Assembly: GCA_000320545.1 (NCBI GenBank)
Contig: ADNK01000550.1
Span: 165,520 to 229,519 of the forward strand
From: Bigelowiella natans CCMP2755
Taxonomy: Eukaryota > Protista > Cercozoa
Length of the DNA: 64,000 nt
Reading direction: 5' to 3'
This document shows, piece after piece, positions 4,801 through 24,842 of the stretch; within the stretch, counting starts at the first letter, position 1; every line of letters starts with the position of its first letter. The notes beneath the pieces are model-generated. The model was not told the origin of the DNA and made no database searches. It saw only the letters and a program-made list of their open reading frames with translations. The translations under genes and the position numbers were made by a program.

Positions 4801-5823
4801 CTCAGCAACAACGAGACCACGCGTCGGATGCACATGTGTGCCCCCATCTACGTGCACCCCTGGCAGTACGAGGAATCCAGTCTCACACAGGACAAAGCGA
4901 AAGATCTCACGTGCCCCAGAGTGTGGCGGAGAACGCTCTTGCCTGTTTATGGCATTCGACAACGCAACTGGGACGATCCTATCCGCAGCAGCAGCATCAT
5001 CAACGTCAACGACAAAAGTTACCGAGACGCGGCCAAACTCACCTCAGAGCCCCTGGCTTCGGTCGGGGTGGTCTCCGCGACACCGCTCGACCGGAAGGAC
5101 AACCAGACGGTCAGGTACAACAGCGAACGAATGACCAAGACGGACGTACAGACCGGTCTCTGCAGGCTCTGCGAGAAGAAGAACGGGATATTCTCGAGCA
5201 TCTACACCTCCATGAGTGAAATGGAAAACTTAGATAACAAAATTTTGAGCCCAGTTACGAGGAGGGTGAAGGCACAGAGCTATGTGATGTGCATGCTCTT
5301 TGTGTTTGCCGTGCGCTGTGGGTACGATTTGAAGAGTGCGCGAAACAAATGCAAACACACCAATGCTTTCAAACCTGAAAATCTCACCGCAACCGAGAAA
5401 CTCATGTACGACACCATTTTCCTCAAAACCGTGCCGAAATTAGACGGGCTTGTTTTCGAAAATAATAACGAAGCATACGACGCTCTGAACGAACAAGTCG
5501 AAAAGCTTACAAAGAAGAAGTTCGGAAGCACCAAGAACAAATCTCTTTTCGTGCGGCTCTGGATGCGGTGGTGCATGCGAAGCATGCTTTTGTTCATGGA
5601 GACCCCGAGAGGCACACAACCGTACCTGGACGCAATGCTAAAGGTGAAGAAAGCTGTTGACAACAAGTTTAGCAGAGAGATTTTCGACACCCTCCCGTCC
5701 AAGAATGAGTATTACATCACCAGCCAAGCCACAAGTGACGAGAAAGATGCGAGGGCAAAGCAGGTGCTGTATCGACTTTTCACCCGAATGAACGAGATCG
5801 GAAAAAATTTTCCTTCCCGCTGA
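1873..5823 (+). CDS. Very large retroviral-type (rve, DDE) integrase, Polinton/virophage-like, 1316 aa
   Basis: Core motifs VLNIDLVNL (D327, nt 2851), HILVATETDSGLCAARWVNSK, TIQSDEGSEF (D414, nt 3112), QVETVNKLL (E443, nt 3199) and NAVDAINNT. Downstream are FSLVRVL and FYKGYRAHWSYDVYVV (nt 4321), the latter matching the KGY..W..E.F.V motif of Polinton-type integrases. Confidence 0.8.
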   Translation: MKFQRSTRGGFNVWDLIARIDAKIKSATEKKTAEAKLSVHVRCSPTELRLAFSSKFHEHKSVTQTVSKSVHEHLANLLAVLLHDEERARDGNPSTPVAFNLDIHPIEPIEKVLTTLETPRIADVKTDVSSIPGPAHLWMLAARYMFSHGNANRVQFARPDEFTVLKLPETKGLGNDITKFRSTQFALMRKIFIPVTIRFKPNMPQHHFLIVKPEMCNTFLQELYTHENTPAGPVALMGFARMHMRILNVRRNQILRFIRTRLTAQLQRSVYRIASATLIQKSISLANDKATVADIAMQQIVESKASYKRWASVSVRKFNNFSVLNIDLVNLNRHSLANHWGFITPLEGGTDNSEGSERHILVATETDSGLCAARWVNSKTSREEVLPAMRSIFVELAILHGCVYGRDIKTIQSDEGSEFADIVRELTKIKYTRSKESKNVQVETVNKLLCLHMFRKFVLTDTGRSNVELHEQHCNMVLQNAVDAINNTNRAGLGVMIDSTKTRNKSMDAKVPDSNRRQRHLRLLKKLNSGHANKTELVSGVQGSVDLSLSPRALCLHHINAKAVVESVLHPELRSYDESLLQMVRMSRPVRARVSVEQSSDARLLLLNDAMQHPRVYSRLERVMKKANLRDSMDHRKKFLKKVGKMNNQKRGALERHRKATAFDRRISTEASENLIARMLKDSLWDKMQRHVVRWGYTKESRQQMHLPVFSLVRVLVDDTKASGSIMENRKAAPTTPIVEEDLDCLKEERKGAGRGRGNARGGRRGRGRQQQQQNKQMEGVYAESHWSLSEKNSDVLQTDTRKGAVNNILAHNRKRFYKGYRAHWSYDVYVVLCVLPTLQSHTNTSKEDASKIVRLRCRYMVCPLWVLGRRSKTFRDAVRRNPTRLDLVMRDLRRNAKRFLTEEGNWADAIGVAKDLWTRNQSQYYLMRNTEKTREVDAKTDRQQYKSPYPWKIRPELQRINWNTNQASLMYPFLMLSNNETTRRMHMCAPIYVHPWQYEESSLTQDKAKDLTCPRVWRRTLLPVYGIRQRNWDDPIRSSSIINVNDKSYRDAAKLTSEPLASVGVVSATPLDRKDNQTVRYNSERMTKTDVQTGLCRLCEKKNGIFSSIYTSMSEMENLDNKILSPVTRRVKAQSYVMCMLFVFAVRCGYDLKSARNKCKHTNAFKPENLTATEKLMYDTIFLKTVPKLDGLVFENNNEAYDALNEQVEKLTKKKFGSTKNKSLFVRLWMRWCMRSMLLFMETPRGTQPYLDAMLKVKKAVDNKFSREIFDTLPSKNEYYITSQATSDEKDARAKQVLYRLFTRMNEIGKNFPSR

Positions 5824-9991: not shown

Positions 9992-10412
9992 TGGCGGGAA
10001 ACTCTACCATTTCTCTGGAATCGAGCGGGAGGGTTCGAGAACAATGCGAGTTCGCGTGGAATGGCAGGGGAATTTTTGCGGGTTTGGGTGTTCGGGTGTG
10101 CAAAAAGACCACAATTGCTTCCTGGCCCACGTGCTTTGCTGCTCCGTGGCATTTTGCGTGCCCATCACTCGTAAATTTCTCGTGACAAGGTACCCTCTTT
10201 TTGTTTTTATTTTTAAAAATATCTTTTCGGTAGCAAGAATTTGGTGAAAATTGCCTAAATGTCAAAAAACAAAGAGAGTCCCGCCAAACACCCAAACGAA
10301 CAAAATCACCCAAAACACACCATGAACTTTTCTCATGCAAAGGAGCACTTTGCTTTCACTTTCCACCTGTCCGCGCTCCTACCTTTCGGCCCCAGTGTTG
10401 CAATCTGAGCAC

Positions 10413-11211
10413 ATGCCCTCCCCCATCAAGAAGCGCCGAATCGATGCTGTCCGTGAAAAGGATCGAGACGACGATACCAAGGACTCTGTGGATGATCTTA
10501 ATCGGACCATTTCGGACCTCAACAGAACAATCATGGACAAAGTCTTTGATTTGGAGGACAAAAACAAGAAAATAAAGTCAATGCAGATCATCATCGACAA
10601 TCTAAAAGACTACGTGAGGCTGTTGGAGAACGTGAAGAAGCCAGGGGAAGCTGTCAAGAGCACCAGCCCGTGCAATTCGAACAGTGAAGAGTCCGATTGC
10701 AGTGGTGAGATAGACCCTGATGATTTCGAGCAAAATGACATTTCGCACGTGGACTTTGAGGACGATGACTCTGAGGAAGAAAGCAAAGGCAACAACAGCG
10801 TCTCTGAGAGTTTGGCGAACATTGTCCAAAACTACAACTATGCAATGGACCCTGAAGATATCCGTGGTTTCGAGCACCTGAAACATTACCGGCCATTGGA
10901 TGTGTTGCAAGATTTCCTGGACTTTGATTCCAAAATCGAGAAGTTGATGGAAACGAACGATTTAGAGAAGAAGGAAAAAATGGAGAAACTTGAGAGCATC
11001 CTCAAATTTAATGAGCAGATTTTGACAGTGATTCATGATGACCTTTTGGGTTTTGGGTTTAACCACAATTGTGTTCATTGGAGTGAGGTGTATCTGCGCC
11101 TCACAGGGTCAGTCAGTCCATGCTTGGAAGACGTCTCTGATTCTTTCAATGTGCTCTTGCTCAAAGTGAACATCATCACATTCAAATGCAAGAAACTGGC
11201 TGGTCTCCTCA
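10413..11211 (+). pseudogene. 5' part of the D5-like helicase gene interrupted by LTR element copy 1
   Basis: The ORF runs into the LTR at 11212. Removing 11212..16329 (element plus one TSD copy, CTCA) joins ...KLAGLL to KKTERVDLY... in frame: 799+725=1524 nt, a 507-aa ORF. Confidence 0.8.
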
Positions 11212-11537
11212 TGTTGCGCGTAAGGTGTTCACAGGCCGAGGCGCTACGTGCACAAGTAGGCAGGGGGGGGGAAAGGCACGTTTGCTTCCTTTTGAAGAGT
11301 TGTGTTTATTTTTATTAAAGATTATATTTTTATTAAATCGTGCACTGCGTAATCATTCGCGAAGCTTTCGCGAATGCCGCCGCACGTGGGGCAGCACACT
11401 TCCGGTGTGCTGCCATGAGTCCCGCCGGAACCCACGTGCCTATGCTGTATTAATATCTACGTTATCTATATTCTATATCCGCGACAACCCCTTTGTTGTC
11501 GCACGTGACTTGTGCCCGCGTAGTGGTACGCGCTACA
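11212..11537 (-). repeat. 3' LTR of copy 1 (326 bp)
   Basis: TG...CA termini; identical by eye to the five other full LTRs. Confidence 0.95.
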
Positions 11538-11588
11538 CCTCCCCCAAGTCACGTTGCTCCTTCCTTCCTTCCTTATTCCCTTAGACCT

Positions 11589-14500
11589 TCATCGCTTTCG
11601 GAACTTCACCAACCACCAGGTAATAGATTCCTCTCTAACCTTATCTCCTTTGTCGCTTACCCAGAACTCACCTTCGTCCTTAGGTTCGTGTCCATACCAG
11701 CCCTCTGCATCAAGGTCCCCCAGGACCTTATACCAGTGCTCAAAGGGTAAGTCGGGAACAGCTAGGTAGAGTAGCTGATATTTTCCGTCCTTTATTTTCA
11801 TAGCTACCCTCTCCATATTTCGTAATCCAGGGTAGCCTAGATAGACAATCTTCATGCGCCAATCGTCGTTCACCCTGACCTTATTGTTTCCATATTCCAC
11901 ATCGAACTTAGGTCGGGGTCCTAAACAAGGCATTGCTCGCTCCCACACAGTAGGGTTTACTTTAACATCCTCTAGGAGCTTCTCACCGATATCATAATTC
12001 TTTAGGTGACTGATGTGGCGCAAGGTGACCCTGTTCCCATCATAGATGTAGTACTGCTTCCTCCCCTTCCTCTCGGTAACCTTTGCAACGCCACCCCAGA
12101 AGGGGTCTTGTTTATTTCTCGATCTCAGATTTACCTTGGCCCTAACATACTGTCCTTCCTTTAGAACTCGGCCATCGTACGGGACCTTCTCGTCTTCGCT
12201 CTCGGTATCGTCGTCGTTGTCGTCGCCTTCTTCCCTCTCCTTATCCTTGATACCTCCCCCAGACGTGAAGGTGTCGTTTACTAACCCTTGTATCTTGTCT
12301 GGTGTGGTGCTATTTATCCTGCTTAGGTTGGCCAAGGTGCGGTGGAGTCGCTCTACCTTGGAGTTGGACTGGGCATAGTATACAGGTGAGGCATCAATAT
12401 TAGGGTGTGGTAGCTGTAGAAGAGAGGTCTCATTATCCACATGTAACTTCTTTGGTATCTTGTTTATGCTAACTTCATCAGGGATAGCCTGGAGCTCAGA
12501 CTCCCAGGTACGGTAGCAGTTAGTAAGCCTCTGCTTATATAAGCCTTTGTTCTTCTTAGCAACGTTGACCTTGATAATCTTTTTAACCCAGCACTTTCCA
12601 GTGGCCACATCAACGAAGGTAAGGTAGTGATAGCCATCGTACTTATAAACATCAATTTGCACGATATCTAAGAAGTTCCTTGCTTTGATTTTCTTAGATG
12701 CACGGCTCTTGCTGGACTCCTTGGTGGCGACGCCTGCCGCCTTCAAGCTGGAGCACCTGCAGCCACGCAGGTATGTCCTTATCTCTTTTAGCTTGTAGGG
12801 CCAGTAGTAATGGTAGAGTAGAGCAGTGATATGGTTTTCTCCTACGTGTGCAGGTCCATGGGCGGTAAAGAGAAGGGCTCCCCTGGTCCGCCGTGGCACG
12901 TAGGTACGCCTAACATTATTAGTGTATACATATATCCTATCACTAAGTACCTCATGCTTGTGTTTGTATTTATCCAGGTGTTCTTGAAGGTGCTGGAGCT
13001 CCTCTGGCTCAGGCAGGAAGTCGCCGTCCTCGAAGGTAATCGCGTTAACCATAGGGGTGACCTGGGTAGGGACTTTCTTTTCGAACAGCCTGCTGAAATA
13101 GTCAGCAAGCTGCTTGTCTCCTGGTGCGTAGACCACTGTCCTCTTGTCCCTAAACTCTTCCGTGTCCGCCCTCATAGCTGCATACTCATCGTTAGGCGCT
13201 TCGAGCTTGCGGTCGATGCCTAGGAGGGGCTTGTGGTCAGTCATTAAGGTGAAGCTGGGCACCGACAGCAGGTAGTATCTTAGTTTCCTCTGCGCCTCAG
13301 TCATGGCTTTATACTCTCCTTTTGTAGGGCTGTACTTGGCCTCAGCTGCTGTGCAGGCCCTGCCCCACACCCGTATGATCTGCTGGTCTTGGGTAAGTAC
13401 AGCAGCCATACCTAGCTTAGACCAGTCTGTCCATAGGGTAGCTGGTCTAGTAGTGTCTAGCTTAGCATTCAATAGGGTGTTGCTGCATAACTTTATTAGG
13501 TTATCGAAGTGGGCATCAAGGCCAGCCTTGGCCCACACCTTAGCGAAGCTGAGGCCTACAGAGTTCTCCTTCCGGTAAGCAGTAGTAAAAGCAGCTGCAG
13601 TCCTAGCGTAGGTAGGGGAGAACCTACGTAGTATCCAAGCTGCAGTCTGCAAGAATGACTTTAACTCCTTTGCATTCTTAGGTTTAGGGGCTTGCTGTAG
13701 TGCTGCTACTTTCTCGGGGTTTGGGGTGATGCGGCCTTGCTCCAGGTAATATCCACACCACTTGATTCTTGTAGCTAGGAATGTACACTTCTGCAGTCTA
13801 ATAGTAAAACCGAAGTGTGCAAACCTAATAAATATATTTTCCAGGAGGAAGATCTGAGCGACGACTGTGTTGGTACATATTATGTCATCATCCACATACA
13901 CAAACACAAACACCCACAACACAGACGCCATCCCATCATGTGTGTATGCCCTGTAGTTCTGACTACTGAACGCATCCCCTGATATGCTTAGGCCGTAAGG
14001 GAATACGACGAAGTGCCACTTCCTGTGCCTGCTGGAGAACGCGGTAATGGGGCGGGAGGTTTTGTGGATGGGTGTCTGCATGTATGATTCATTTTTATCT
14101 AGGGAAGAGTAGTATTTGTATCCTATGACGTGTTCAATAACGTCATCTATCCTTGGTGTAGGTGTCTGGATCCTCTTTATTACTCGGTTGTGGCGGATGA
14201 AGTTGTGCGCCAGGCGGAAGAAAGGGTAAGTAGGTTTCTTAGCTAGCACATGTCTCACGTTCCATGGTGAGTTGCTTGGCTCTATCTTCCCTTCCTTTGC
14301 CCATTCATTGATCTGCCACTCTATCTTTTCCCAGTCCGCTTCCGGTCGCCTATGTTCTGGGTCATTGATGATGCACTCTTCGTATCCCTTCTTTAGCTCG
14401 ATCTTTACTGGGGTAAGCTTGCTGGAGGGCTTCGTCGTCGGCTTGGTGATGTCAGAGTACTTCTCGTTTAATATTTTATTAATGTACTTTTTGCCTTTGT

Positions 14501-15557
14501 CGATATCCCAATCATCAGCTGGGGGGGTCTTGTCCAGTAGCTCCGTTATCTGTCGGATGGTCTTGCCGGGGTTCTTCTTCCGTAGCTCGGTAGGTGTAGG
14601 TAGCTTGTTGTCCGCTAGGTCCATAAACTCTAACGCATTAACGCTTGACTCAGAGGTCCACTCGTCAAGCCGTATCATGTTCTGGCTGATGGTCCTGCCT
14701 GACTTCTTTGGCAACTTAGCAAAGTATATCTTGTGATTGTAGAATGATATGATCCCCCCTAATTTTTCTAGGGCATCCTGTCCGAGGAGTAGTTCCATGG
14801 ATAAAGTCATGGCTACTCGGGTCTTGATTTGGGTCTCCGCGTCGCTGCCAGGTATCTGTAGCTTTAGCATTAGCTCACCGACGGTCTTCATGGAAGAGCT
14901 TCCGTCTGCTTGAGCATATTTACGTTCTTTCTTAGTCACTTGATCCAATAGTCCTAACCTTCTTACTGTGCTTAGGCTTATGAAGGACTTCGGCATGCTG
15001 CCACTATCCCAAAGGGCAGGTAGTTTCTTGTAGTCTCCGTAGCTGTCTTTAACTTTAACCTTGGTCATAGCAACTTTGATAGTCCTGTTAGCGTCTTCGT
15101 CATTAATGTTGCATACTCCTAAGTTCTTTATGTCGTCTAGGGTCATGGGCTTGTCTTGGTCCTGCGTTGCTGGTACTGCTGTCTTCGTCGGCGCCTGCTT
15201 AAGGTGATCTAATATTCCGTTTATCTGCTGCTGTATAGCATTGATACTGTTCTGCTTTTTGTTCTTATATTTATTGTTCTTCCCGTTGTTGCTGCCTTGC
15301 CATTTGCTGTTGTTATATCCTTGTCCTCTGCCTTTCTTTCTCTTTAACTTCTCGTAGTGTTCGTTGAGCTGCCTGATCGTCATCCTGGGTCGTCCTTCTT
15401 TCCTGTCTCTGCAGTCTTTAGCGGTGTGTTTCCCTTTACGTGAGCAGTATCCGCAACGTCGGTTACCTTCCCTGTCCTTGTACCAGTCTCGCTGCGGCTT
15501 AATAGCGTTAATGTTTCCTATGCCAGGTACCTTAGGGCTGGTAAACTTGGAAGCCAA
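11589..15557 (-). CDS. Gag C-terminus/Pol polyprotein (zinc knuckle, aspartic protease, RT, RNase H, integrase, C-terminal extra domain)
   Basis: CGYCSRKGKHTAKDC knuckle; LWDSGS protease; FPYGLS and YVDDD RT motifs; WTDWS and TDHKPL RNase H; H..H/YYWP/CRC zinc finger with QIDV, HVDNE and KVERLH integrase motifs. The first three residues (MAS) derive from the rearranged PBS. Confidence 0.93.
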   Translation of the reverse strand: MASKFTSPKVPGIGNINAIKPQRDWYKDREGNRRCGYCSRKGKHTAKDCRDRKEGRPRMTIRQLNEHYEKLKRKKGRGQGYNNSKWQGSNNGKNNKYKNKKQNSINAIQQQINGILDHLKQAPTKTAVPATQDQDKPMTLDDIKNLGVCNINDEDANRTIKVAMTKVKVKDSYGDYKKLPALWDSGSMPKSFISLSTVRRLGLLDQVTKKERKYAQADGSSSMKTVGELMLKLQIPGSDAETQIKTRVAMTLSMELLLGQDALEKLGGIISFYNHKIYFAKLPKKSGRTISQNMIRLDEWTSESSVNALEFMDLADNKLPTPTELRKKNPGKTIRQITELLDKTPPADDWDIDKGKKYINKILNEKYSDITKPTTKPSSKLTPVKIELKKGYEECIINDPEHRRPEADWEKIEWQINEWAKEGKIEPSNSPWNVRHVLAKKPTYPFFRLAHNFIRHNRVIKRIQTPTPRIDDVIEHVIGYKYYSSLDKNESYMQTPIHKTSRPITAFSSRHRKWHFVVFPYGLSISGDAFSSQNYRAYTHDGMASVLWVFVFVYVDDDIICTNTVVAQIFLLENIFIRFAHFGFTIRLQKCTFLATRIKWCGYYLEQGRITPNPEKVAALQQAPKPKNAKELKSFLQTAAWILRRFSPTYARTAAAFTTAYRKENSVGLSFAKVWAKAGLDAHFDNLIKLCSNTLLNAKLDTTRPATLWTDWSKLGMAAVLTQDQQIIRVWGRACTAAEAKYSPTKGEYKAMTEAQRKLRYYLLSVPSFTLMTDHKPLLGIDRKLEAPNDEYAAMRADTEEFRDKRTVVYAPGDKQLADYFSRLFEKKVPTQVTPMVNAITFEDGDFLPEPEELQHLQEHLDKYKHKHEVLSDRIYVYTNNVRRTYVPRRTRGALLFTAHGPAHVGENHITALLYHYYWPYKLKEIRTYLRGCRCSSLKAAGVATKESSKSRASKKIKARNFLDIVQIDVYKYDGYHYLTFVDVATGKCWVKKIIKVNVAKKNKGLYKQRLTNCYRTWESELQAIPDEVSINKIPKKLHVDNETSLLQLPHPNIDASPVYYAQSNSKVERLHRTLANLSRINSTTPDKIQGLVNDTFTSGGGIKDKEREEGDDNDDDTESEDEKVPYDGRVLKEGQYVRAKVNLRSRNKQDPFWGGVAKVTERKGRKQYYIYDGNRVTLRHISHLKNYDIGEKLLEDVKVNPTVWERAMPCLGPRPKFDVEYGNNKVRVNDDWRMKIVYLGYPGLRNMERVAMKIKDGKYQLLYLAVPDLPFEHWYKVLGDLDAEGWYGHEPKDEGEFWVSDKGDKVREESITWWLVKFRKR

Positions 15558-15561
15558 AGGT

Positions 15562-15798
15562 TGTTGCGCGTAAGGTGTTCACAGGCCGAGGCGCTACGTG
15601 CACAAGTAGGCAGGGGGGGGGAAAGGCACGTTTGCTTCCTTTTGAAGAGTTGTGTTTATTTTTATTAAAGATTATATTTTTATTAAATCGTGCACTGCGT
15701 AATCATTCGCGAAGCTTTCGCGAATGCCGCCGCACGTGGGGCAGCACACTTCCGGTGTGCTGCCATGAGTCCCGCCGGAACCCACGTGCCTATGCTGT
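15562..15798 (-). repeat. Internal partial LTR (3' ~237 bp of the LTR in element orientation) inside copy 1
   Basis: Matches the LTR from TGTTGCGCG to TATGCTGT, then switches to gag sequence. Confidence 0.9.
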
Positions 15799-15999
15799 TG
15801 CATCTGCTTTCTTAATCCCGGGTGCTGGTCCCGGCGGTGCCTGTGGAGGTGTTCCTCCTCCTTCCTTAGCGTCCGTATCGCCCTTCCTTTCCTGTTTCTG
15901 CTCGTGCCCTTGCACGGCCTGCGAGCCAAAGTCCTGCTGTTCTTCTAGCTGCTGTGACATTGTTAGTCAAATCGTTTCCCGTGTGTGGAAGCCAAAGGT

Positions 16000-16325
16000 T
16001 GTTGCGCGTAAGGTGTTCACAGGCCGAGGCGCTACGTGCACAAGTAGGCAGGGGGGGGGAAAGGCACGTTTGCTTCCTTTTGAAGAGTTGTGTTTATTTT
16101 TATTAAAGATTATATTTTTATTAAATCGTGCACTGCGTAATCATTCGCGAAGCTTTCGCGAATGCCGCCGCACGTGGGGCAGCACACTTCCGGTGTGCTG
16201 CCATGAGTCCCGCCGGAACCCACGTGCCTATGCTGTATTAATATCTACGTTATCTATATTCTATATCCGCGACAACCCCTTTGTTGTCGCACGTGACTTG
16301 TGCCCGCGTAGTGGTACGCGCTACA
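16000..16325 (-). repeat. 5' LTR of copy 1 (326 bp)
   Basis: Followed in element orientation by ACCTT-TGGCTTCCACACACGGG (putative PBS) and the gag ATG. Confidence 0.95.
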
Positions 16326-16329
16326 CTCA

Positions 16330-17054
16330 AGAAAACCGAAAGAGTGGATTTGTATCAAAGCATATCGTACAAAATCCACGCGTACGTCAAACTCCTTGAA
16401 ATGTGTTACATCCACACGCACAGAATCAACATCATGTATCTAGAGGACACTGGTTTGGCAAAAATCATGGAAACAGGGGTCATGTCAGGCCACCCAGTGT
16501 GCGAGTTTCAAGAAAGAGCATGCAACCTCAACATAGAAACCACACACGTGGCAACGCCGAATGCGTCTGACGTGGTTGCGTACACTGTCAAACTCATGTC
16601 GATGAAAGGCTTGGTCCACGACAACGAGCACGTGTTAAAAGTCGACAATGGAATCGCTGAGTATTACACTGGAAAAAAGAAAAACGGATACAACAAAACG
16701 CTGAGGCAGGTTGAGGATGGCAAGGTCACGCTCACCGAATTCGTTTACAATGAGGTGATGTCGAGAATGGGGGGCATGAACAGCAGAGTGAACCCAGAGG
16801 ATGTTGTCAAAAAGTACCTGACGAAATTGAGGAATGCCGGGATCACTCTGAAACGCAATTTGACTTCCTTTTCGACCAAGAATCTCACATTTGACTGTCT
16901 GACTTTGTCTTTGCGGATGCGAAGTCATAGGGGGTATTTCGATCGACTACAGAAAGGAACAGTCGGTAATGCAAAATGCCACAAAAAACAAAAAACAAAA
17001 AACAGCATGCTGATCTTCATGTCCCCTTTCTTTGCAATCAGGAACGCCGTATGA
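16330..17054 (+). pseudogene. Middle part of the interrupted helicase gene (D5_N-like region)
   Basis: In frame with 10413..11211 after element removal; SFSTKNLTFDCLTLSLR loosely resembles the L.F.NG..DL.T..FR motif of D5_N domains. Confidence 0.65.
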
Positions 17055-19134
17055 CACCAGTGTGAGGAGTGAGAAAGAGCTTTGGAAGAATTTTTGGGAC
17101 CTCGACATCTTTGTGCCGAACGGCGAGCACACAAAGGTGTTGTATGATGACAACTTTTTCATCAAGATCAATCGTGACCAGTTGGGAAACAAGGCTAAGC
17201 GTGGCACGTGGTTTCAAAACGAGTATTTCCCAGACCCCACTGATGTCAAGTATGAGGACAGTTATTTGCACAATGAAGAGGCCTCGCGAAGCACCTACAA
17301 CCCGTCATTGACCATGTACCACATAATCGCAAAGACAGTGTACGCCGGCCTTGTGAAAACAAAGTACATGGAAAATGTTGGCGTGTACTTTTGGAGAGTG
17401 GGAGACGCAGGCACCGGGAAATCAACTTATCTGCAAATGATGAAACACATCTTGAGTGGAACTGGACCGGAACAAGTCATGAGCATGAGCTCCCATGACG
17501 GTGAAACCGCTTCGAACTTCAGTTTTGCCAGAATAGCCAAACACAACGGCGGTTACTACAGGGCGGTGCACTGCGAGGAGGCACAAAACATAAAATTGAA
17601 CGTTCGGCAAATCGTGTTTGCATCGATGTCAAACGCACCAATCACCACGGCTGGGAAGCACCAGCAGGCCACGGAGCAACGGTTAAACATTGCGTGGGAA
17701 TTTAACAGCAACGCGACGGTTGCGACCGTGATGAACCAGGGCTCCATTGCTGCAAATTGCCGCCGCGTGCAACTCTTCGAGCACAACGCCAAGAACATGC
17801 AAAAGAAAGACGAATCTAACATGACAACGTGGATAAACAACAAGGTGCTTCACAGTCTGATGGCAATTGCTATCTCCTACACCAGCTGCATGTTTGTCAT
17901 GGAAGGCAAGAATTTCTTGAAGGACACTTTGCAGCAGATGAGCGAGTCAGAAAAATTCAAACATTTGAGCAAGAAAACCAAAATGTTCGCGTTTGTTGAA
18001 TCGGGATATTTCGTCAAAAAAGAACACGGTCTTGTCCCATACAGCGTGTTCAAAAAAGCTTATGACCATTTCAAATACCCGCCGGTAAAAGGGAATGTGT
18101 ACCAATTGTACAACGAGAAACAGGACAGTGGCAAGGTTCTAGAGAAGATATGGGGCATAAAGGTTCTGAACGTCTTGAATGTCCCCAAAGAATGCAAAGG
18201 CGTACAAAAATCCAGGGGAAGGTCTTTGAAAGGGGTTTTCCTTCCGGTGTTCAACGACTGTGCTTACAAGGAACCAAGTGAGTTTTACCGAAGTAACAGA
18301 CCGGTGTACAACTCCACAGGTTCCGCTGAAACCAAACTTCGGGGTTCAGACACCGACATTACAGACAGGTACATCATTGGCGTCGAGGCTTCACCAGATG
18401 CCTTGAAGAATTATCATGGATTAAACTTCACCAATTACAACAAAAAATTGTCGCTGTGTGATGCAATGGTCCAAAAAAACGAAAGTGAGGTGACATATTC
18501 ATTGGTTGAATTGCAGCAGTTAAACGATGATGCAGCTTTTGACAACATCAATGGAGACGTGTTGGATGAAACGGAAAAGGATCGCTTGAGAACAGTTCTT
18601 CATTTGATCAATGCTTCCACTGCGATGAAGGAAAAAAGACAAAAAATGGAGGAAAAAATCCAAACAATGGAGCAAAAGGTCCCCACAAAATTTCACCAGC
18701 GCAAATTCTGTGGATGGCCGTTGTGGGTGCTCCGAAAAAAAGGCCTTTTGGACAAGATGCTCACGGAAACCGAAGAAGGATCCAAAAAGTTCAAACCAGT
18801 GACCAGGAACGTGGGTCGTGGACTTCAGCACCAGGAAAAGGTTGTGTTGGACTGGCTGGAAACCTACATGAACATCGATTCAAGCAATGGCAAAGCGCGT
18901 TTCAGTTTCAACAAGGACAAGGCAACAACTGCAAAGTTCAACGACATCATCTCACACATCAACAACATCACATGTGTCTTGGTGTCCCGATTCCACGATC
19001 GTTTGCACTATGACAAGAGAATTTGTGACAACGACGAAAACAAAGCACATTTTGAGGAACTCTTAGACAAGACTAGCAAGTATTATCAATTGATTGAAAA
19101 GACGTGCTCGAAACGCAACATGGAAAGACAGTGA
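17032..19134 (+). CDS. D5-like superfamily 3 helicase domain protein (probably the 3' part of a larger gene)
   Basis: Walker A GDAGTGKST (nt 17401-17427), Walker B AVHCEEA and motif C WEFNSN. The ORF starts at a TTG and overlaps the preceding ORF by 23 nt in another frame. Confidence 0.85.
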   Translation: MQSGTPYDTSVRSEKELWKNFWDLDIFVPNGEHTKVLYDDNFFIKINRDQLGNKAKRGTWFQNEYFPDPTDVKYEDSYLHNEEASRSTYNPSLTMYHIIAKTVYAGLVKTKYMENVGVYFWRVGDAGTGKSTYLQMMKHILSGTGPEQVMSMSSHDGETASNFSFARIAKHNGGYYRAVHCEEAQNIKLNVRQIVFASMSNAPITTAGKHQQATEQRLNIAWEFNSNATVATVMNQGSIAANCRRVQLFEHNAKNMQKKDESNMTTWINNKVLHSLMAIAISYTSCMFVMEGKNFLKDTLQQMSESEKFKHLSKKTKMFAFVESGYFVKKEHGLVPYSVFKKAYDHFKYPPVKGNVYQLYNEKQDSGKVLEKIWGIKVLNVLNVPKECKGVQKSRGRSLKGVFLPVFNDCAYKEPSEFYRSNRPVYNSTGSAETKLRGSDTDITDRYIIGVEASPDALKNYHGLNFTNYNKKLSLCDAMVQKNESEVTYSLVELQQLNDDAAFDNINGDVLDETEKDRLRTVLHLINASTAMKEKRQKMEEKIQTMEQKVPTKFHQRKFCGWPLWVLRKKGLLDKMLTETEEGSKKFKPVTRNVGRGLQHQEKVVLDWLETYMNIDSSNGKARFSFNKDKATTAKFNDIISHINNITCVLVSRFHDRLHYDKRICDNDENKAHFEELLDKTSKYYQLIEKTCSKRNMERQ

Positions 19135-19235
19135 ATTTGCAGACTTGAACATGCTCTTGTGTTCAAAATGACACCGTTAAAAACATTGCGCGCATCAACA
19201 TGTTGGCGCTTTGAATTTCTGATGTTAGTCACATT

Positions 19236-19357
19236 GGCGCCATGCACGAGGCAGCGACGCGCCATTGATGCCAAGTCGCTAAAAACGACGCCAAGGCGAT
19301 TCTGCGCAATTTGAAGTCGGGCCGCGCCGCGCTGCCAAGTGGCACATGATGGCAATG
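19236..19357. repeat. Intergenic repeat B, copy 1 (GC-rich, ~120 bp)
   Basis: GCACGAGGCAGCGACGCGCCATTGATGCCAAG...AAAACGACGCCAAGGCG...GGCAATG; also found at 20511, 21424 and inverted at 23014. Confidence 0.85.
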
Positions 19358-19432
19358 GAGTTCACAAAAATCATGTTGAGATGTTGTTGAAATTTTGAGG
19401 AACATTCAGGCACCGAATGATCTAGTTTTCTT

Positions 19433-20260
19433 CTAGTGTTCTTTGACTACTTCCATGCCCATTTGCAAAAACGCAAATCTGAATTTTTGCATCATTGCCT
19501 GGTGGCAATCTGTCTCGTTCTTCAATTTCTTCACAAGATGTTCCAAATGATCGTTCAGAAACATGGAATCCATTTTCATGATGTTGTTCAGTTTCTCATA
19601 CTCTGCATGAATGACTCGGAACTCTTTTGCCGCCCGATCGCGGAGATAGAGAACATCTTTTGCAAGTTCTTTGACATCATCTTCGTTGTGATAACCAAAA
19701 TGAACGAACAATTCTTGGCATCTTTCTAGTGAGATTTCTTGGAAACCACAAATGCTGTTTTTCAACGATTTGAGATGGAATTCTGTCGTGAAACCTCCCC
19801 TGCCGTCGTCAAGGCTCCGGATGATGTCGTAGACGTTTTCGTGGAGCGTGCCCATGTGATTGCCGTACGTCCATTTGAGAGGCATGAGCCATCTGCAAGG
19901 GTTTTCCGTGGTCCAGAAGAATTTTGCAACTGTGGACATGTCTCTGATTAGCCGACAGAGAATCCGGTGTGGGGCTTGAAAATTTCCAGGAGTTTTGAAG
20001 TCCGTCCGCGAGAATCTGGGAATGGTTTTTTGCCGGAACAATGCATCCCGTCTCTTCGCTCTTTCAACAGTTTTCCAATTATCGGGCGTTTTGTTCTGGT
20101 CCTTGAAGGCTTCGAAAATTTCTTCAAAGTCAGGGACGTCAGTTCTTTTTGATTCCAATAGAGTGTCTCTGTTCTGTCTCTGGATTTTCCGAAGTTTCTC
20201 GCGTCGTCGCTTCTTTTCTGGACTCTTTTTTCGATTTTTGACTGAACCTTTGATTGGCAT
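19433..20260 (-). CDS. Hypothetical protein (~275 aa from ATG 20260), basic N-terminus, coiled-coil C-terminus
   Basis: Part of ORF 19433..20395; the ATG of MPIKGSVKNRKK lies 47 nt downstream of repeat A. Confidence 0.7.
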   Translation of the reverse strand: MPIKGSVKNRKKSPEKKRRREKLRKIQRQNRDTLLESKRTDVPDFEEIFEAFKDQNKTPDNWKTVERAKRRDALFRQKTIPRFSRTDFKTPGNFQAPHRILCRLIRDMSTVAKFFWTTENPCRWLMPLKWTYGNHMGTLHENVYDIIRSLDDGRGGFTTEFHLKSLKNSICGFQEISLERCQELFVHFGYHNEDDVKELAKDVLYLRDRAAKEFRVIHAEYEKLNNIMKMDSMFLNDHLEHLVKKLKNETDCHQAMMQKFRFAFLQMGMEVVKEH

Positions 20261-20306
20261 GGCTCTGATTTCTTGCTTTGAGGGTTTGATTTGTGGCTCC
20301 GAGGCT

Positions 20307-20370
20307 ATTTGGATTCTGATGAGAATGAGGAAGTGAGAAGGTGAGGATCGAGGCTCGGAGATTGCACGGG
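20307..20370 (-). promoter_or_regulatory. Repeat A copy 1: 64-bp putative promoter/5'UTR core
   Basis: 63/64 identical to the copies at 21244-21307 and 23280-23343; always 31-47 nt upstream of an ATG and preceded by CACGTG boxes. Confidence 0.7.
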
Positions 20371-20510
20371 ATGGCCATGTGGCTTTTTGGGCCATGCCAC
20401 GTGACCCTCACAATTTGAAATTTTCAATTTTGGAAGCCACGTGGCCCTCTCGTCAGAACGAAGTACAAAGGAAAAAAAACAAAGACAAAGGAGGTGGTTT
20501 GTTCGTTTTG

Positions 20511-20654
20511 CGCCATGCACGGGGCAGCGACGCGCCATTGATGCCAAGCCATTCAAAACGACGCCAAGGCGATTCCGCGCAATCCGAAGCCGTGCCGCGC
20601 TGCGCGGCGCCGCGCCGCGCCGCGCTGCCTGCTGAGTGGCACATGTTGGCAATG
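20511..20654. repeat. Intergenic repeat B, copy 2
   Basis: Direct similarity to 19236-19357, with an expanded GCGCC tract. Confidence 0.85.
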
Positions 20655-20684
20655 CACACCAAGTTTGTGGCAAGAAAAGCTTGT

Positions 20685-20999
20685 TCAATTTTTAGATTTG
20701 GGCAGCACACAGCGCTTCTCATTGTCGAGTGCAAACATGACAGGGCCTTTCGAGTCGAAGGAAACGAAATGTCCTCCTCTCTCCATTTTCTTGTAGGTTT
20801 TGTTCAGGTCGTCTTGGGTGACTGTTGGAAGTGTGCAAAACCCGAAGCGGTCACTCCAAGTGTCCAAGAAGAGACCAGTCAACGATTTCTTTTTTTTGTC
20901 AGAAAGGGAGTAGAAAGGATCGAAGGTGGTGTTGGGTGGCAGACGAAAACCTCCAAAATTTTCACACCAATTGTTGAAAATTTCCGCATCGTGTCTCAT
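20685..20999 (-). CDS. Hypothetical protein, 104 aa
   Basis: Its ATG overlaps the TGA of the H3-tail ORF (ATGA). Confidence 0.5.
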   Translation of the reverse strand: MRHDAEIFNNWCENFGGFRLPPNTTFDPFYSLSDKKKKSLTGLFLDTWSDRFGFCTLPTVTQDDLNKTYKKMERGGHFVSFDSKGPVMFALDNEKRCVLPKSKN

Positions 21000-21211
21000 C
21001 CAATGTCTCGTTCATCATTTAGGAGTTTTGCCTCCAAAAGAAAAACGTTCAATTCAATGAAGGGTTTGCCAGTGATCTCGCTGAGAGGGCAAAAGCTTGG
21101 TGACACTTGATTGTATTTCTTGTTCTTTCCAGTGCGCCAACCCCGTGACGTTGGTCGCCGACCAACTAGTCCTCCAGTGGACTTGCGTGGGGTTTGTTTG
21201 GTGCGTGCCAT
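20996..21211 (-). CDS. Histone H3 N-terminal tail fused to unrelated sequence (71 aa)
   Basis: MARTKQTPRKSTGG followed by non-histone sequence; 38 of the first 42 nt are identical to the H3 gene at 21990; repeat A lies 33 nt upstream. Confidence 0.75.
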   Translation of the reverse strand: MARTKQTPRKSTGGLVGRRPTSRGWRTGKNKKYNQVSPSFCPLSEITGKPFIELNVFLLEAKLLNDERDIG

Positions 21212-21243
21212 TGTTTCTTTTTGATTGTTTAGGGTTTGAGGTG

Positions 21244-21307
21244 ATTTGGATTCTGATGAGAATGAGGAAGTGAGAAAGTGAGGATCGAGGCTCGGAGATT
21301 GCACGGG
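21244..21307 (-). promoter_or_regulatory. Repeat A copy 2
   Basis: Identical over 64 bp to the reverse complement of 23280-23343; three CACGTG boxes upstream (21311-21405). Confidence 0.7.
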
Positions 21308-21423
21308 GTAGCCACGTGGCTTTTTCAACCAAGCCACGTGATGTTGCTGGTTCGGCCATGTGACCCTCTTGCTTTGAATTGTTCCTTTTTTAGAAAGCCA
21401 CGTGGCTTTCTTGTCACGACGAA

Positions 21424-21510
21424 ATGCACGAGGCAGCGACGCGCCATTTGTGCAAAGCCGCTTCGAAACGGCGCCAAGGCGGGTTTTGGCGCGGCAACAC
21501 GTTGGCAATG
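21424..21510. repeat. Intergenic repeat B, copy 3 (shorter, more diverged)
   Basis: GCACGAGGCAGCGACGCGCCATT...CGCCAAGGCG...TTGGCAATG. Confidence 0.8.
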
Positions 21511-21573
21511 GACAGAGGGCTCACGGACAAAGTTTTGCGGTGATGAAAAATCAAACTTGGGTGCATGCAAGCA

Positions 21574-21990
21574 TCAGGCTCTCTCCCCGCGAATGCGGCG
21601 AGCAAGCTGAATGTCTTTGACCATGATTGTCACTCTTTTGGCGTGGATGGCGCAAAGATTGGTGTCCTCGAACAACGACACCAAGTAGGCCTCTGAGGCC
21701 TCCTGCAACGCCAAGATGGCGGCGCTCTGAAAACGGAGTCCTTCTTTGAAATCCTCGGCGATTTCCCTGCAAAGGCGCTGAAACGGCAGTTTGCGGATGA
21801 GGAGGTCGGTGGATTTCTGGTAGCGGCGGATCTGACGCAGGGCGACGGTTCCAGGGCGGTACCGATGAGGCTTCTTCACTCCTCCAGTGGCAGGTGCTGA
21901 TTTTCTGACTTTGGACGCTTTGGTGGCGAGCTGTTTGCGAGGAGCCTTTCCTCCAGTGGTTTTGCGTGCGGTCTGTTTGGTGCGTGCCAT
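21574..21990 (-). CDS. H3: Histone H3, divergent, intronless, 138 aa
   Basis: [73 protein letters not shown]...[33 protein letters not shown]. True ATG at 21990; the longer ORF in the track is upstream read-through. Confidence 0.97.
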
Positions 21991-22386
21991 GGTGAGCCAA
22001 GCAATGGTCGAGGGGTTTGAGTTGTGAGGACTTGAGCTGATGAGGGAGTGAGAGGCCGGGCCTTGGAATCCAAGTGAACGAGCCACGTGGCTTTTGACCA
22101 AAATCCACATGGCTTTGTTGGACGGGGTCACGTGGCATTTGTTCGAAGACCACGTGACCACAAGATCCGTTTTTCCCTTTTTTGGTCGTGTGACCTTGTT
22201 CAACAGGCCACGTGACTACCCCGCCCTGCTTCTGTTTTGACACCTGCAACCACGTGACCCGAACCCTGGTGAGCCACGTGGTCCACCCCCTTCAACTCCG
22301 AGGCCTGGACCCTCACTTCCTCATCTGCTCAAGTCCTCACAACTCAAACACCCGACAAACTTTGAACACCTTCGCCTCTGAACCTG
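21991..22386. promoter_or_regulatory. Putative bidirectional promoter with six CACGTG boxes between H3 and the acidic-protein gene
   Basis: CACGTG near 22084, 22130, 22151, 22209, 22251 and 22275; both arms carry a CTCACT(T/C)CCTCATC.GCTCAAGTCCTCACAACTCAAAC leader related to repeat A. Confidence 0.65.
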
Positions 22387-22962
22387 ATGCCACGTCCAAA
22401 ACCGAATAACCCAACCAAGAACCGCACCGTCAAAGATGACGCTCCGAAGCGCCAGTCATCACGCAACAGGAAGGCGCCACCCAAGTTCGACCCCTCCGCC
22501 GAAGAGACCACGCATGACCCTGCAATCAAACGTCAGAAGAGTGAAGGCGACGAAAAGAAGAGCCGTGACCCCCCCTCCCAAGTCGACGTTGATGATGCCG
22601 TGGAAACAGTCGCCGAGAACTCCCCAATGACCAAAGCTGACGTCAAGGAAAATTCCACCATCAATGGGGGCGATGATGATGAGAAAGTCGAAGAGAAGGA
22701 TGAAGAAGAGCGTGAAGAAGAGATGGATGATGAAGAGCATCATGATGAGGAGGAAGACGCCGAAGAGAAAGAGAAAAAGCGGCTTGCCAAGATCGCTCGT
22801 CAGCAGGCAAGGTTCGAGAAAATGTGGCATGTCGATGGCACGAAATTGCTTGAAGGAGGAAAACGCGTCAAAGGAGTCCGTGTGATGCCGGGCGGCAAAC
22901 TTGAAAACGTCTCCTGCTGGGGGCAAGAAACCACTGTGGTGAATTTTCACAAACACATTTGA
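22387..22962 (+). CDS. Hypothetical protein, 191 aa, with a basic N-terminus and a long Asp/Glu tract
   Basis: ATG ORF divergent from H3; RQSSRNRKAPPKFDP motif; DDDEKVEEKDEEEREEEMDDEEHHDEEEDAEE tract. Confidence 0.75.
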   Translation: MPRPKPNNPTKNRTVKDDAPKRQSSRNRKAPPKFDPSAEETTHDPAIKRQKSEGDEKKSRDPPSQVDVDDAVETVAENSPMTKADVKENSTINGGDDDEKVEEKDEEEREEEMDDEEHHDEEEDAEEKEKKRLAKIARQQARFEKMWHVDGTKLLEGGKRVKGVRVMPGGKLENVSCWGQETTVVNFHKHI

Positions 22963-23013
22963 ACGTTGAAATGTCAGTTTTTTTCATCAAGCTTTTCTGA
23001 TCTCAAACTTGAT

Positions 23014-23136
23014 GTGCATTGCCAACGTGCGCCACTTCGCAGCGCGGCACGGCGCGGCATTGCGCAACATTGCCTTTTCGTCGTTTTGAATGGCTTGGCA
23101 TCGATGGCGCCTGGCGCGTCGCTGCCTCGTGCATGG
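23014..23136. repeat. Intergenic repeat B, copy 4 (inverted)
   Basis: Reverse complement of copies 1-3; similarity to copy 2 extends to the AAGTTTG...AGAAAAGCTTG flank. Confidence 0.85.
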
Positions 23137-23279
23137 AGCAAAACGAACAAATTGTCTTCTTCGCATTTCGTTGTGACAGGAAGCCACGTGGCCTCTGGAA
23201 ACCAAAAATCAAAACTGAAAGGGTCACGTGGTTGGCAAAACCAGGTCACGTGGTTCGGTCGAAAAAGCCACGTGGCTTG

Positions 23280-23343
23280 CCCGTGCAATCTCCGAGCCTC
23301 GATCCTCACTTTCTCACTTCCTCATTCTCATCAGAATCCAAAT
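23280..23343 (+). promoter_or_regulatory. Repeat A copy 3
   Basis: CCCGTGCAATCTCCGAGCCTCGATCCTCACTTTCTCACTTCCTCATTCTCATCAGAATCCAAAT; four CACGTG boxes upstream (23185-23275); ATG 31 nt downstream. Confidence 0.7.
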
Positions 23344-23373
23344 CACCTCAAAGCCAGAAATCAAAAAGAAACA

Positions 23374-24468
23374 ATGCGAACCAAGACCCGGCACACAAAA
23401 TCAAAAACAATGCCAACCAAGACAAAATCAAATGGGCCCAGGATGAGATGCCAGACGAGTGAGACGGAGAAGAAAAATGTCACAGCTCGCATTCCACCAA
23501 CCATAAAAAACCAACTCAAAAATTTGGAGAAAGCAGCCAAGCACAGAGAATATTGCCCATGCGAGGGAAATTTCGAGGAATGTTGCGACAACCCAGCCAA
23601 CTACCCAGTGCAACGTCACGGGGTTGAGCGGAAATCAGTCAAGGACTTTGGCGGCAAAAAGGAGCTACAAAAAGTGGAGCGACGAAAAGCGATTTTGAAA
23701 AACCAAAAAAATGCCAGGACCACCGTGAAGGATTTCAACAGGATGATCAAATCACTGGAGAATTTGTTGGAAAAATTGAAGCAGTTCAGTGAAACAGTGG
23801 AAAAGGAGTACCTCCATTTCCGTGACCAACACAAAACGCCATGCGCGGACAAGAAAAAGTGCCATGCAGAGTGGGAGTTGTTCAAAAATGACCTGGAATT
23901 TGTCTCAACGAGGCTTTGGAACTTCAGTTACGTTCGTTTTCCACTCCACAAGGCCATGAAAAGGGTCGTGCACAAGATGAACAGGAGCATCAACCAAATA
24001 TCTTCTGATTCATTCAAAAGAAAGGTGATTCGAGAACTCAATGACGTCAAGGGATTCACCAAGATTTTCAGAAAAGGAGGCGACTTGCCAGAAACTCTAA
24101 ACATGTTGAAAGAGCACAAGGATGACATGAAGGCATTGTCAAAAGATTATGATTTGAAACCAGCCTCCATTGATCGCCACGAGAGTTTTTTGGGCATTTT
24201 TGAGGAACTTTGCAACATCGTGTTTGAGGTGTCAGGGGACTTGAGTGACACATTCAATGACATGACTTCAAAGCAGATTTTGAAAATTTCAGATGTCGTC
24301 AAAAACATTTATCTGGAATTGAACAAACCCCACAAATGGAATGATGGGGACGGACCTGATGGCGAGTCAGACTCACGTGATTCAGATGATTCTGGTTCTG
24401 AATTTGAGCGTTTTTATGACACTGATGATGATGACAATGATGAACGTTGTGATGATGTTAAACAATGA
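23374..24468 (+). CDS. Hypothetical helical protein (~364 aa from ATG 23374) with an acidic C-terminus
   Basis: Part of ORF 22966..24468; the upstream part of that ORF is read-through of the repeats; contains CPCEGNFEECC. Confidence 0.75.
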   Translation: MRTKTRHTKSKTMPTKTKSNGPRMRCQTSETEKKNVTARIPPTIKNQLKNLEKAAKHREYCPCEGNFEECCDNPANYPVQRHGVERKSVKDFGGKKELQKVERRKAILKNQKNARTTVKDFNRMIKSLENLLEKLKQFSETVEKEYLHFRDQHKTPCADKKKCHAEWELFKNDLEFVSTRLWNFSYVRFPLHKAMKRVVHKMNRSINQISSDSFKRKVIRELNDVKGFTKIFRKGGDLPETLNMLKEHKDDMKALSKDYDLKPASIDRHESFLGIFEELCNIVFEVSGDLSDTFNDMTSKQILKISDVVKNIYLELNKPHKWNDGDGPDGESDSRDSDDSGSEFERFYDTDDDDNDERCDDVKQ

Positions 24469-24783
24469 TGAAACATCTTTGAATTCTTACAAATCGAAAA
24501 CTTGATCATGTGAAAACTGTGCACATGTCTAAGAACATGCAAAAACATTGAAGCTTGCAATTTGCGATGTGGCAATGACTGAAAATGCATCGATCTCATG
24601 CAAAGATGTTGAATGGGGCGCAGAAGCATTCAATTGATTTCATCCGCGTGTGACTGCCAGTCGTTGCATGCATTTCAAATCGCACAATGATGCAACCGCT
24701 TGGAACATGGAGAAGACATGTTTGGTGCATGTGAGGAAACTGAGAACCTTTGCTTTGACTCAAATTTTCGAGCCATACTTATA

Positions 24784-24842
24784 ATAGACACAGCAATACA
24801 CTATATATAATATATATATTGTGTATTGCATGTCTATCATTG
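24784..24842. repeat. AT-centred hairpin, inverted relative of 25140-25198
   Basis: ATAGACACAGCAATACAC...GTGTATTGCATGTCTATCATTG. Confidence 0.7.

What the first reader, a model, noticed from the sequence alone, without database searches (positions are those of the whole stretch)
20260..23376. Modular expression cassette [repeat B]-[CACGTG array]-[64-bp repeat A]-ATG reused in front of unrelated ORFs
Seen: three complete cassettes (two on -, one on +) with a 63-64/64 identical core 31-47 nt before the ATG. Two more diverged leaders precede H3 and the acidic protein. About 15 CACGTG boxes lie in 20.39-23.28 kb. The downstream proteins share no similarity. Known: CACGTG is the E-box/G-box bound by bHLH and bZIP factors. 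Inference: a histone-gene-type promoter/leader was duplicated and used to recruit or create new genes, giving a co-regulated module and possible recombination hotspots for gene shuffling.
Basis: partly seen in the sequence, partly recalled or inferred. Interest (0 to 1): 0.78.

Follow-up and report, generated by a model that had tools for sequence, protein, structure and literature searches.

The report
Reused promoter-tail spacers in algal element

Summary
The repeats are real: 15 CACGTG boxes (0.94 expected), a 64-nt core identical at 63-64/64 in three leaders, and two diverged leaders. Three corrections. (1) Repeat B has four copies, each 30-75 nt behind a stop codon; the extra copy (19234-19364) has no promoter behind it, so B is likely a 3' tail and the unit is [boxes-A-ORF-B]. 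(2) The ORFs are not all unrelated: gene 2 starts with the H3 tail (38/42 nt), and two DNA read sets show it intact (175 aa). (3) The host is B. natans, and the array adjoins an rve-like integrase and a D5/SF3-type helicase in gene-dense DNA, likely an unclassified mobile element. Contigs show only about four near-identical A copies genome-wide, so it is no dispersed MITE. One is a 210-nt boxes+A block copied elsewhere without B or the gene start. Best reading: an inverted-plus-tandem array of tail/promoter spacers that works like phage PeSL cassettes, letting ORFs be exchanged between fixed regulatory flanks. Promoter function and shuffling are inferred; one RNA run gave 3 reads, with no control.

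The parts
19234..19364 (-). B0: fourth copy of repeat B, behind gene 1; no boxes, leader or ORF follow it
   Evidence: nhmmer E=1e-36; 114/131 identical to B1, no CACGTG in the rest of the 400 nt behind the stop
19433..20260 (-). gene 1, 275-aa orphan with basic N-terminus
   Evidence: no Pfam family below E 0.1
20296..20445 (-). leader A1 (core 20307-20370, two Inr-like YCAYTYY) plus boxes at 20376 (one mismatch), 20398, 20438
20507..20688 (-). B1: likely 3' tail of gene 2; homology to B3 runs up to the stop codon
   Evidence: (I3, I6)
20685..21211 (-). gene 2: first 14 codons are an H3 tail, then about 160 aa of unknown type; 71 aa in the window, 175 aa with the extra base both DNA runs read behind 21001
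21234..21406 (-). leader A2 (core 21244-21307, three YCAYTYY at 8-nt spacing) plus boxes at 21313, 21335, 21357 (one mismatch), 21399
21420..21518 (-). B2: likely 3' tail of H3; shortest and most diverged B (77-81% to the others)
21574..21990 (-). full-length histone H3 variant, 138 aa (S10T, 2-aa insertion before the K27 motif)
   Evidence: Pfam Histone E=7e-46; PDB alignment
21991..22386 (.). 396-nt divergent promoter region, an imperfect palindrome: leader AH (22010-22093, -), six CACGTG plus two near-boxes, leader Aac (22271-22356, +); no B inside
   Evidence: (I4)
22387..22962 (+). acidic ORF, 191 aa: basic N-terminus, acidic stretch
   Evidence: best Pfam row E=0.06, under its cut-off
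22983..23142 (+). B3: likely 3' tail of the acidic ORF
23138..23347 (+). boxes (23185, 23225, 23247, 23269) plus leader A5 (core 23280-23343); this 210-nt block is inferred to exist identically at a second locus outside the window
   Evidence: contig breaks and loose ends in runs X1 and X3, mapped; downstream letters absent from the window
23374..24468 (+). gene 5, 364-aa predicted helical orphan; paralog P0011 on B. natans scaffold 59 starts at the same Met; no B behind it
1873..5823 (+). context: 1316-aa ORF with a weak rve-like integrase core
   Evidence: Pfam rve E=0.059, under cut-off; D-D-E spacing by eye; fold search not significant
10335..19134 (+). context: D5/SF3-type helicase gene, interrupted by a Gypsy LTR element (about 11212-16324) and holding one GT-AG intron in the JGI model
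   Evidence: DUF5906 E=4e-4; Atlas score 0.97 to DUF5906/Pox_D5 clusters

Best explanation
Five genes lie in an inverted-plus-tandem array of units [CACGTG boxes - leader A - ORF - repeat B], in which boxes+A are likely a host-polymerase promoter and B likely a 3' tail, inside what is probably a large integrase/helicase mobile element; the repeated spacers likely act as recombination docks that exchange ORFs and promoter blocks between fixed flanks. Shown: the repeats, their layout, the box conservation and 22/40-42-nt spacing, the H3-tail chimera, the low copy number, the host species. Inferred: a host bHLH/bZIP-type factor binds the boxes; transcription starts at the Inr-like YCAYTYY repeats about 50-75 nt before the ATG; B carries 3'-end signals; an inverted duplication made the divergent H3/acidic pair and tandem duplications extended both arms; crossovers or conversion at the end of the B core and at the 3' end of A made the mosaics. 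It would work like the PeSL terminator/promoter cassettes of T4-type phages.
For: Layout: B lies 30, 54, 63 and 75 nt behind the stops of 4 of 5 genes; B0 has no box behind it; the central promoters lack B. Selection: between the gene 2 and gene 5 promoters, boxes 36/40, spacers 39/65, core 64/64. A is non-coding: the two long JGI models read it in different frames and paralog P0011 starts at the ATG just behind it. YCAYTYY stands 52-76 nt before 5 of 5 cassette ATGs, against 2 of 7 other element ORFs and 0.23 per 110 nt background; the consensus is the oomycete INR (PMC3599244, passages). Mosaics: gene 2 has the gene-5-type leader and start context up to the ATG (82.5% over 223 nt), then the H3 5' end (38/42 nt), then a B that shares 60 extra nt with B3. 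Recurrent junctions: B copies part ways 0-12 nt after the B core and A copies within 21235-21244. In both DNA runs the contigs give three exits from the A2-type core, and a 172-nt promoter contig is broken at 23138, which needs a further copy of 23138-23347 with other flanks. Context: ORF cover 0.79-0.85 against 0.18-0.19 in flanking host DNA; one 43,443-nt Logan contig holds relatives of four neighbouring ORFs (integrase 96%, 111-aa ORF 95%, helicase 88%, 401-aa ORF in the same 90% cluster).
Against: No start site or 3' end was seen: RNA run X21 gave 3 reads on 20632-22668 from 15,999,702 records (reads up to 60 nt, no host-gene control), so the array may be silent. B folds no better than shuffles (z = 1.01, 0.95, -0.17, 0.72), unlike PeSL stem-loops; its role is unknown. 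Gene 5 has no B behind it. The element's ends were not found (no linking repeats in 1-31000), so that the array belongs to it is inferred from adjacency; no relative of gene 5 from the 43-kb contig appeared (lengths 249-795 aa only). No second genome shows a swapped ORF at an orthologous site. The further promoter copy may simply lie upstream of the gene 5 paralog with an insertion: a depth-5.5 contig of run X24 joins this promoter to P0011-type sequence. Contig depth is no copy number, and in X3 the promoter contig's depth (58.3 vs 34.5-51.5) is ambiguous. The five promoters are not independent, so box spacing is descriptive only.
Confidence: 0.55

Rival explanations
1. Plain whole-gene duplication: one H3-like unit was duplicated (inverted, then tandem), the ORFs diverged beyond recognition, and the flanks were kept alike by selection and gene conversion. 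No ORF was swapped in.
For: Same layout evidence. All five proteins start with basic tails (7-13 K+R in 25 aa); gene 2 keeps the H3 tail; gene 5 starts MRTKT.
Against: 8 of 10 ORF pairs have no DNA or protein similarity while even the inter-box spacers keep 60% identity. ORF lengths run from 138 to 364 aa. Gene 2 switches sharply from 38/42 identity to none.
Confidence: 0.2
2. One reading: B + boxes + A is one upstream, histone-type expression cassette that was inserted in front of unrelated ORFs.
For: The three inner spacers are homologous from stop to ATG; B lies 19-71 nt before the first box in 3 of 4 copies.
Against: B0 has no promoter behind it; the H3 and acidic promoters have no B; the copy outside the window begins 4 nt after the B core. 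The H3 leader is the outlier, and host histone promoters could not be compared.
Confidence: 0.1
3. The box arrays and B are not promoter parts but binding sites for the element's own proteins (origin, iterons, enhancer-like homologous regions); the ORFs are passengers.
For: 10-bp palindromic boxes at 22- and 40-42-nt spacing; a helicase gene lies next door; almost no RNA reads.
Against: Every array ends 99-121 nt before an ATG and is followed by an oriented Inr-like leader. The unrelated Gypsy LTR, a host-driven promoter, also holds three CACGTG.
Confidence: 0.07
4. The array is a host locus (an H3-variant gene and its decaying duplicates) that merely borders the mobile element.
For: No element ends found; the 43-kb relative gave no gene 5 relative and no member in the clusters of gene 1, H3 or the acidic ORF.
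Against: Intron-free orphan ORFs at 0.85 cover, contiguous with the helicase gene, unlike flanking host DNA; a gene 5 paralog lies on another scaffold.
Confidence: 0.06
5. A and B are dispersed host MITEs with chance positions near ATGs.
For: Short repeats in both orientations.
Against: No copy elsewhere in the 64 kb; about 4 near-identical A copies, and no unexplained copy of the B parts laid, in two DNA runs; 5 of 5 A copies are oriented before an ATG; no terminal inverted repeats.
Confidence: 0.02

Closest known systems
PeSL cassettes of T4-type phages (PMC2839356: abstract and section 13; PMC4122927: abstract)
   Same: Repeated intergenic elements running from the upstream stop to the downstream start, joining a 3' element with a promoter, placed before ORFans in a variable region; recombination between them is the proposed shuffling route.
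   Different: Eukaryotic nuclear element; E/G-box plus Inr-like motifs instead of sigma70 boxes; no stem-loop above chance; 5-6 copies instead of about 50; neither activity nor exchange between genomes shown here.
Divergent histone gene pairs with a shared promoter (recalled, not from a call)
   Same: H3 shares a short (396-nt) divergent promoter region with a partner.
   Different: The partner is an acidic orphan, not H4; no Rfam histone 3' stem-loop match; the promoter also serves non-histone ORFs.
Polintons, PLVs and Tlr1-type elements; B. natans PLVs and provirophages (PMC5499653, PMC5127031: passages)
   Same: Gene-dense integrated DNA with an rve-like integrase and a helicase in a genome known to hold such elements.
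   Different: Helicase is D5/SF3-type, whereas the described PLV-Bnat carry an SF1 helicase; no capsid, packaging ATPase or pPolB recognised among the ORFs scanned; no terminal repeats seen; helicase relatives were found only in B. natans, one Logan contig and one MMETSP/JGI cluster.
H3-tail mimics and transposon anti-silencing proteins such as VANC (PMC8166343, PMC5735166: search listing only)
   Same: Gene 2 carries an H3 N-terminal tail with K4, K9 and S10 on a non-histone body; possible chromatin decoy.
   Different: Here the tail was copied from an adjacent H3 gene; no function or domain was identified.

Membership tests
PeSL | repeated intergenic element spanning upstream stop to downstream start | tested here: met
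   three spacers align from close behind the stop to the ATG
PeSL | stable stem-loop terminator | tested here: not met
   z = 1.01, 0.95, -0.17, 0.72 for the four B copies
PeSL | sigma70-like promoter and Shine-Dalgarno site | not tested
   eukaryotic host; leaders hold CACGTG and YCAYTYY instead
PeSL | placed before ORFans in a variable region | tested here: met
   4 of 5 ORFs have no Pfam family at cut-off; 4 of 4 non-histone ORFs none in PHROGs below E 0.03 (gene 2 by its C-terminal part)
PeSL | ORF gain or loss by recombination between cassettes in related genomes | tested here: inconclusive
   mosaic gene 2 and a separately copied promoter block, but no orthologous locus to compare
PeSL | measured promoter and terminator activity; mini-circles | not testable with these tools
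   needs reporters and PCR; 3 RNA reads only
Histone gene-pair promoter | H3 divergently paired with H4 | tested here: not met
   partner is a 191-aa acidic orphan
Histone gene-pair promoter | histone 3' stem-loop | tested here: not met
   0 of 5 Rfam rows (E<=1) in 19100-25500 fall in the array; none is a histone family
Histone gene-pair promoter | likeness to the host's own histone promoters | not testable with these tools
   no genome held
MITE | high copy number, dispersed | tested here: not met
MITE | terminal inverted repeats and target duplication | tested here: not met
   no inverted pair bounds A or B
Polinton/PLV (surrounding element) | rve integrase | tested here: inconclusive
   Pfam rve E=0.059 under cut-off; model pLDDT 40.6, no fold match at E<=0.001
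Polinton/PLV (surrounding element) | SF1 or SF3 helicase | tested here: met
   DUF5906; Atlas 0.97
Polinton/PLV (surrounding element) | jelly-roll capsid, packaging ATPase, pPolB | tested here: inconclusive
   none recognised in Pfam or PHROGs scans; the element likely runs off the window's left end
Polinton/PLV (surrounding element) | terminal inverted repeats | tested here: inconclusive
   none within 1-31000; left end not in view

The most novel reading that the evidence does not exclude
An undescribed family of large integrase/D5-helicase elements in a chlorarachniophyte carries a eukaryotic counterpart of phage PeSL arrays: fixed tail/promoter docks that capture, swap and fuse ORFs and have built a co-expressed chromatin module (an H3 variant, an H3-tail decoy fused to a new domain, and an acidic chaperone-like protein) that counters host silencing.
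Probability: 0.2. Interest if true: 0.82.

Novelty: new variant of a known kind. Interest (0 to 1): 0.55.

Why it matters
If right, it shows in a eukaryotic nucleus the cassette-driven gene shuffling known from phage variable regions, caught with its intermediates: a promoter block copied on its own, a histone-tail chimera and recurrent junctions. It would offer a route by which mobile elements give orphan ORFs ready-made expression. It also supplies a compact candidate promoter (phased CACGTG boxes plus Inr repeats) for a lineage in which my one search found no paper holding both 'CACGTG' and 'chlorarachniophyte'. If the array is silent and only duplicated, it is a modest curiosity.

Tried and rejected
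No whole genome held, so no genome-wide list of A/B copies or host histone promoters. No RNA holder listed among 20 holders; not used as evidence. No A or B match in viral contigs and no A match in metagenome contigs. No related loci for the helicase, gene 2 C-part or gene 5 in viral contigs or the integrase in metagenomes. Integrase homolog search gave 1 protein among 7992 candidates. Structure models were poor (pLDDT 40.6 and 55.8) and Foldseek gave no match at E<=0.001. PDB sequence searches: 0 rows for the integrase core, 3 rows at E 0.43-1.7 for the gene 2 C-part. The Atlas did not answer for the integrase core or the gene 2 C-part. A U-box-like pattern in gene 2 is by eye and from recall; the two halves scanned apart gave no Pfam family and the full-length protein was not searched. 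B as a hairpin terminator or histone stem-loop: rejected. Gene 2 as a decayed H3 pseudogene: rejected, since similarity stops after 42 nt and the frame is open for 175 aa with the base the reads show. The longer JGI starts for genes 1 and 5: disfavoured. The box-phase test included 4 near-boxes chosen by eye and non-independent copies, so its p-values are not used. Earlier findings: none. Blanc et al. 2015 was not held, so whether this locus is among its annotated elements is unchecked; its supplements may bear on novelty. Paper searches showed no listing describing this array.
Full report
Observation. The counts hold. There are 15 CACGTG at 20398-23274 against 0.94 expected, most within 10-bp palindromes such as GCCACGTGGC or GTCACGTGAC. 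The 64-nt core is 63/64, 64/64 and 64/64 identical and ends 47, 33 and 31 positions before three ATGs. Profiles built from the copies find 5 A and 4 B in the 64 kb, all within 19.2-23.4 kb; the next rows have E>=0.17.

Host and context. A cluster member labelled Bigelowiella natans (JGI model 69883, scaffold 10) is 100% identical to the window's 1316-aa ORF. Bases 1-24.5 kb, leaving out a nested Gypsy element, have ORF cover 0.79-0.85; flanking DNA has 0.18-0.19. This block holds a weak rve-like core (E=0.059; not confirmed by fold) and a D5/SF3-type helicase. One 43,443-nt Logan contig encodes relatives of four of its ORFs. A search of 1.84 billion representatives gave 3 helicase relatives: that contig, an MMETSP/JGI cluster and a 24%-identical B. 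natans paralog on scaffold 12. I read this as a lineage-restricted mobile element; its ends and any capsid genes were not found, so it is unclassified. B. natans is known to hold provirophages and PLVs (PMC5127031, PMC5499653, passages), and most of its NCLDV-like inserted genes were reported silent (PMC5294986, passage).

Anatomy. Left arm (-): H3-B2, gene 2-B1, gene 1-B0. Right arm (+): acidic ORF-B3, gene 5. The centre is a 396-nt imperfect palindrome holding both diverged leaders. B starts 30-75 nt behind the stop of 4 of 5 genes; B0 has no box behind it and the central promoters have no B. In a tandem array only the ends tell head from tail, and both ends say tail. Gene 5 lacks a B, which counts against full regularity. 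B folds no better than shuffles and matches no Rfam family.

Promoter reading (inferred). Between the gene 2 and gene 5 promoters the boxes are 36/40 identical, the spacers 39/65 and the core 64/64 (Fisher p=0.0008 for boxes). Boxes recur at 22 and 40-42 nt. YCAYTYY, the oomycete initiator consensus (PMC3599244, passages), stands 52-76 nt before 5 of 5 cassette ATGs and 2 of 7 other element ORFs. A is read in different frames by two automated gene models, and the gene 5 paralog starts at the ATG behind A, so A is non-coding. That CACGTG is bound by bHLH/bZIP factors is established knowledge, recalled; the factor here is unknown.

Mosaics. Gene 2 has the gene-5-type leader and start context (82.5% over 223 nt, ending at the ATG), then 42 nt of H3 (38/42), then unrelated sequence, then a B sharing extra sequence with B3. 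Both DNA runs laid (X1, X3; 2 of 20 holders) read one extra base behind 21001, which opens a 175-aa frame; the window's break is likely an assembly error. Genes 2 and 5 also share an exact 16-mer, inside a 34-aa stretch that the gene 5 paralog's model lacks. The other 8 of 10 ORF pairs are unrelated.

Copies outside the window. In both DNA runs the A2-type core has three exits: gene 2, gene 5 and a sequence absent from the window. The gene 5 promoter forms its own 172-nt contig, broken at 23138 (depth 135.7 vs 62.9-80.4 in X1; 58.3 vs 34.5-51.5 in X3; depth is only a hint). By parsimony a further copy of 23138-23347 exists with other flanks; it starts 4 nt after the B core and stops at the 3' end of A. 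Summed depth at 21277 and 21308 fits about four copies. So A is low-copy, and boxes+A can move without B or the gene start. The caveat: a depth-5.5 contig of X24 joins this promoter to mid-gene sequence of the P0011 type (29/30 to window 23815-23844, with the Phe codon of P0011), so the extra copy may serve the paralog. The tool showed only part of the pieces (15 not shown).

Expression. Run X21 (about 6% read, 15,999,702 records, up to 60 nt) laid 3 reads on 20632-22668. Genes 1 and 5, most of the acidic ORF and any host control lay outside that stretch. The result is weakly against activity in that run and says nothing on start sites.

Mechanism and comparison. The best fit (0.55) is an array of tail/promoter spacers made by one inverted and several tandem duplications, kept alike by selection and conversion, and used as recombination docks. 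It works like PeSLs, described as composite terminator/promoter motifs that run from stop to start before ORFans and mediate shuffling (PMC2839356, abstract and section 13; PMC4122927, abstract). It is not a PeSL: no stem-loop, and a eukaryotic promoter type.

Verdict. A real, structured feature; a new variant of a known kind of arrangement, in an unclassified element. None of ten paper searches listed it, but the main paper on B. natans viral inserts could not be read. Interest 0.55: the layout and the H3-tail chimera are shown, while promoter activity and ORF exchange are not.

Noticed in passing
window 11212-16324, 31228-36397, 56266-62260: Three near-identical copies (about 100% over kilobases) of a Gypsy LTR element, each rearranged or partly deleted; the first splits the helicase gene with a 4-nt target duplication. 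Each LTR holds three CACGTG, so the motif may be a general host promoter element.
   Followed up: partly
window 15548-15998: A partial extra LTR and a gag fragment inside the first Gypsy copy, an internal rearrangement.
   Followed up: no
window 24781-25194: 414-nt MITE-like element whose two ends are AT-rich hairpins and inverted copies of each other; lies near the likely right end of the gene-dense block.
   Followed up: no
window 16967-17041: The helicase gene model (P0009) has a short GT-AG intron, pointing to nuclear transcription of the element.
   Followed up: partly
window 21001: Both DNA runs read one more base than the window here; likely an assembly error that splits gene 2 in the reference.
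   Followed up: yes
window 21574-21990: The H3 has S10T, a 2-aa insertion before the K27 motif and several core changes; it is alone in its 90% cluster, while gene 2's tail keeps S10.
   Followed up: partly
window 22447-22494: The acidic ORF has a basic R-x-S-x-R-x-R-K-x-P-x-K-F motif that recalls chromatin-anchoring tails of retroelement proteins (from recall, untested).
   Followed up: no
window 21138-21153 (-) and 23611-23626 (+): Exact 16-mer with short inverted ends shared inside genes 2 and 5, read in different frames; unexplained.
   Followed up: partly
P0013 (scaffold 12), P0011 (scaffold 59), P0012 cluster: A distant helicase paralog and a gene 5 paralog elsewhere in B. natans, and a transcript-derived helicase relative in MMETSP, suggest an older family of such elements.
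   Followed up: partly
window 27089-27830 and 29250-30344 (-): Intron-rich host genes: an FKBP isomerase and an ATG17-like-domain protein, the latter next to the second Gypsy copy.
   Followed up: no
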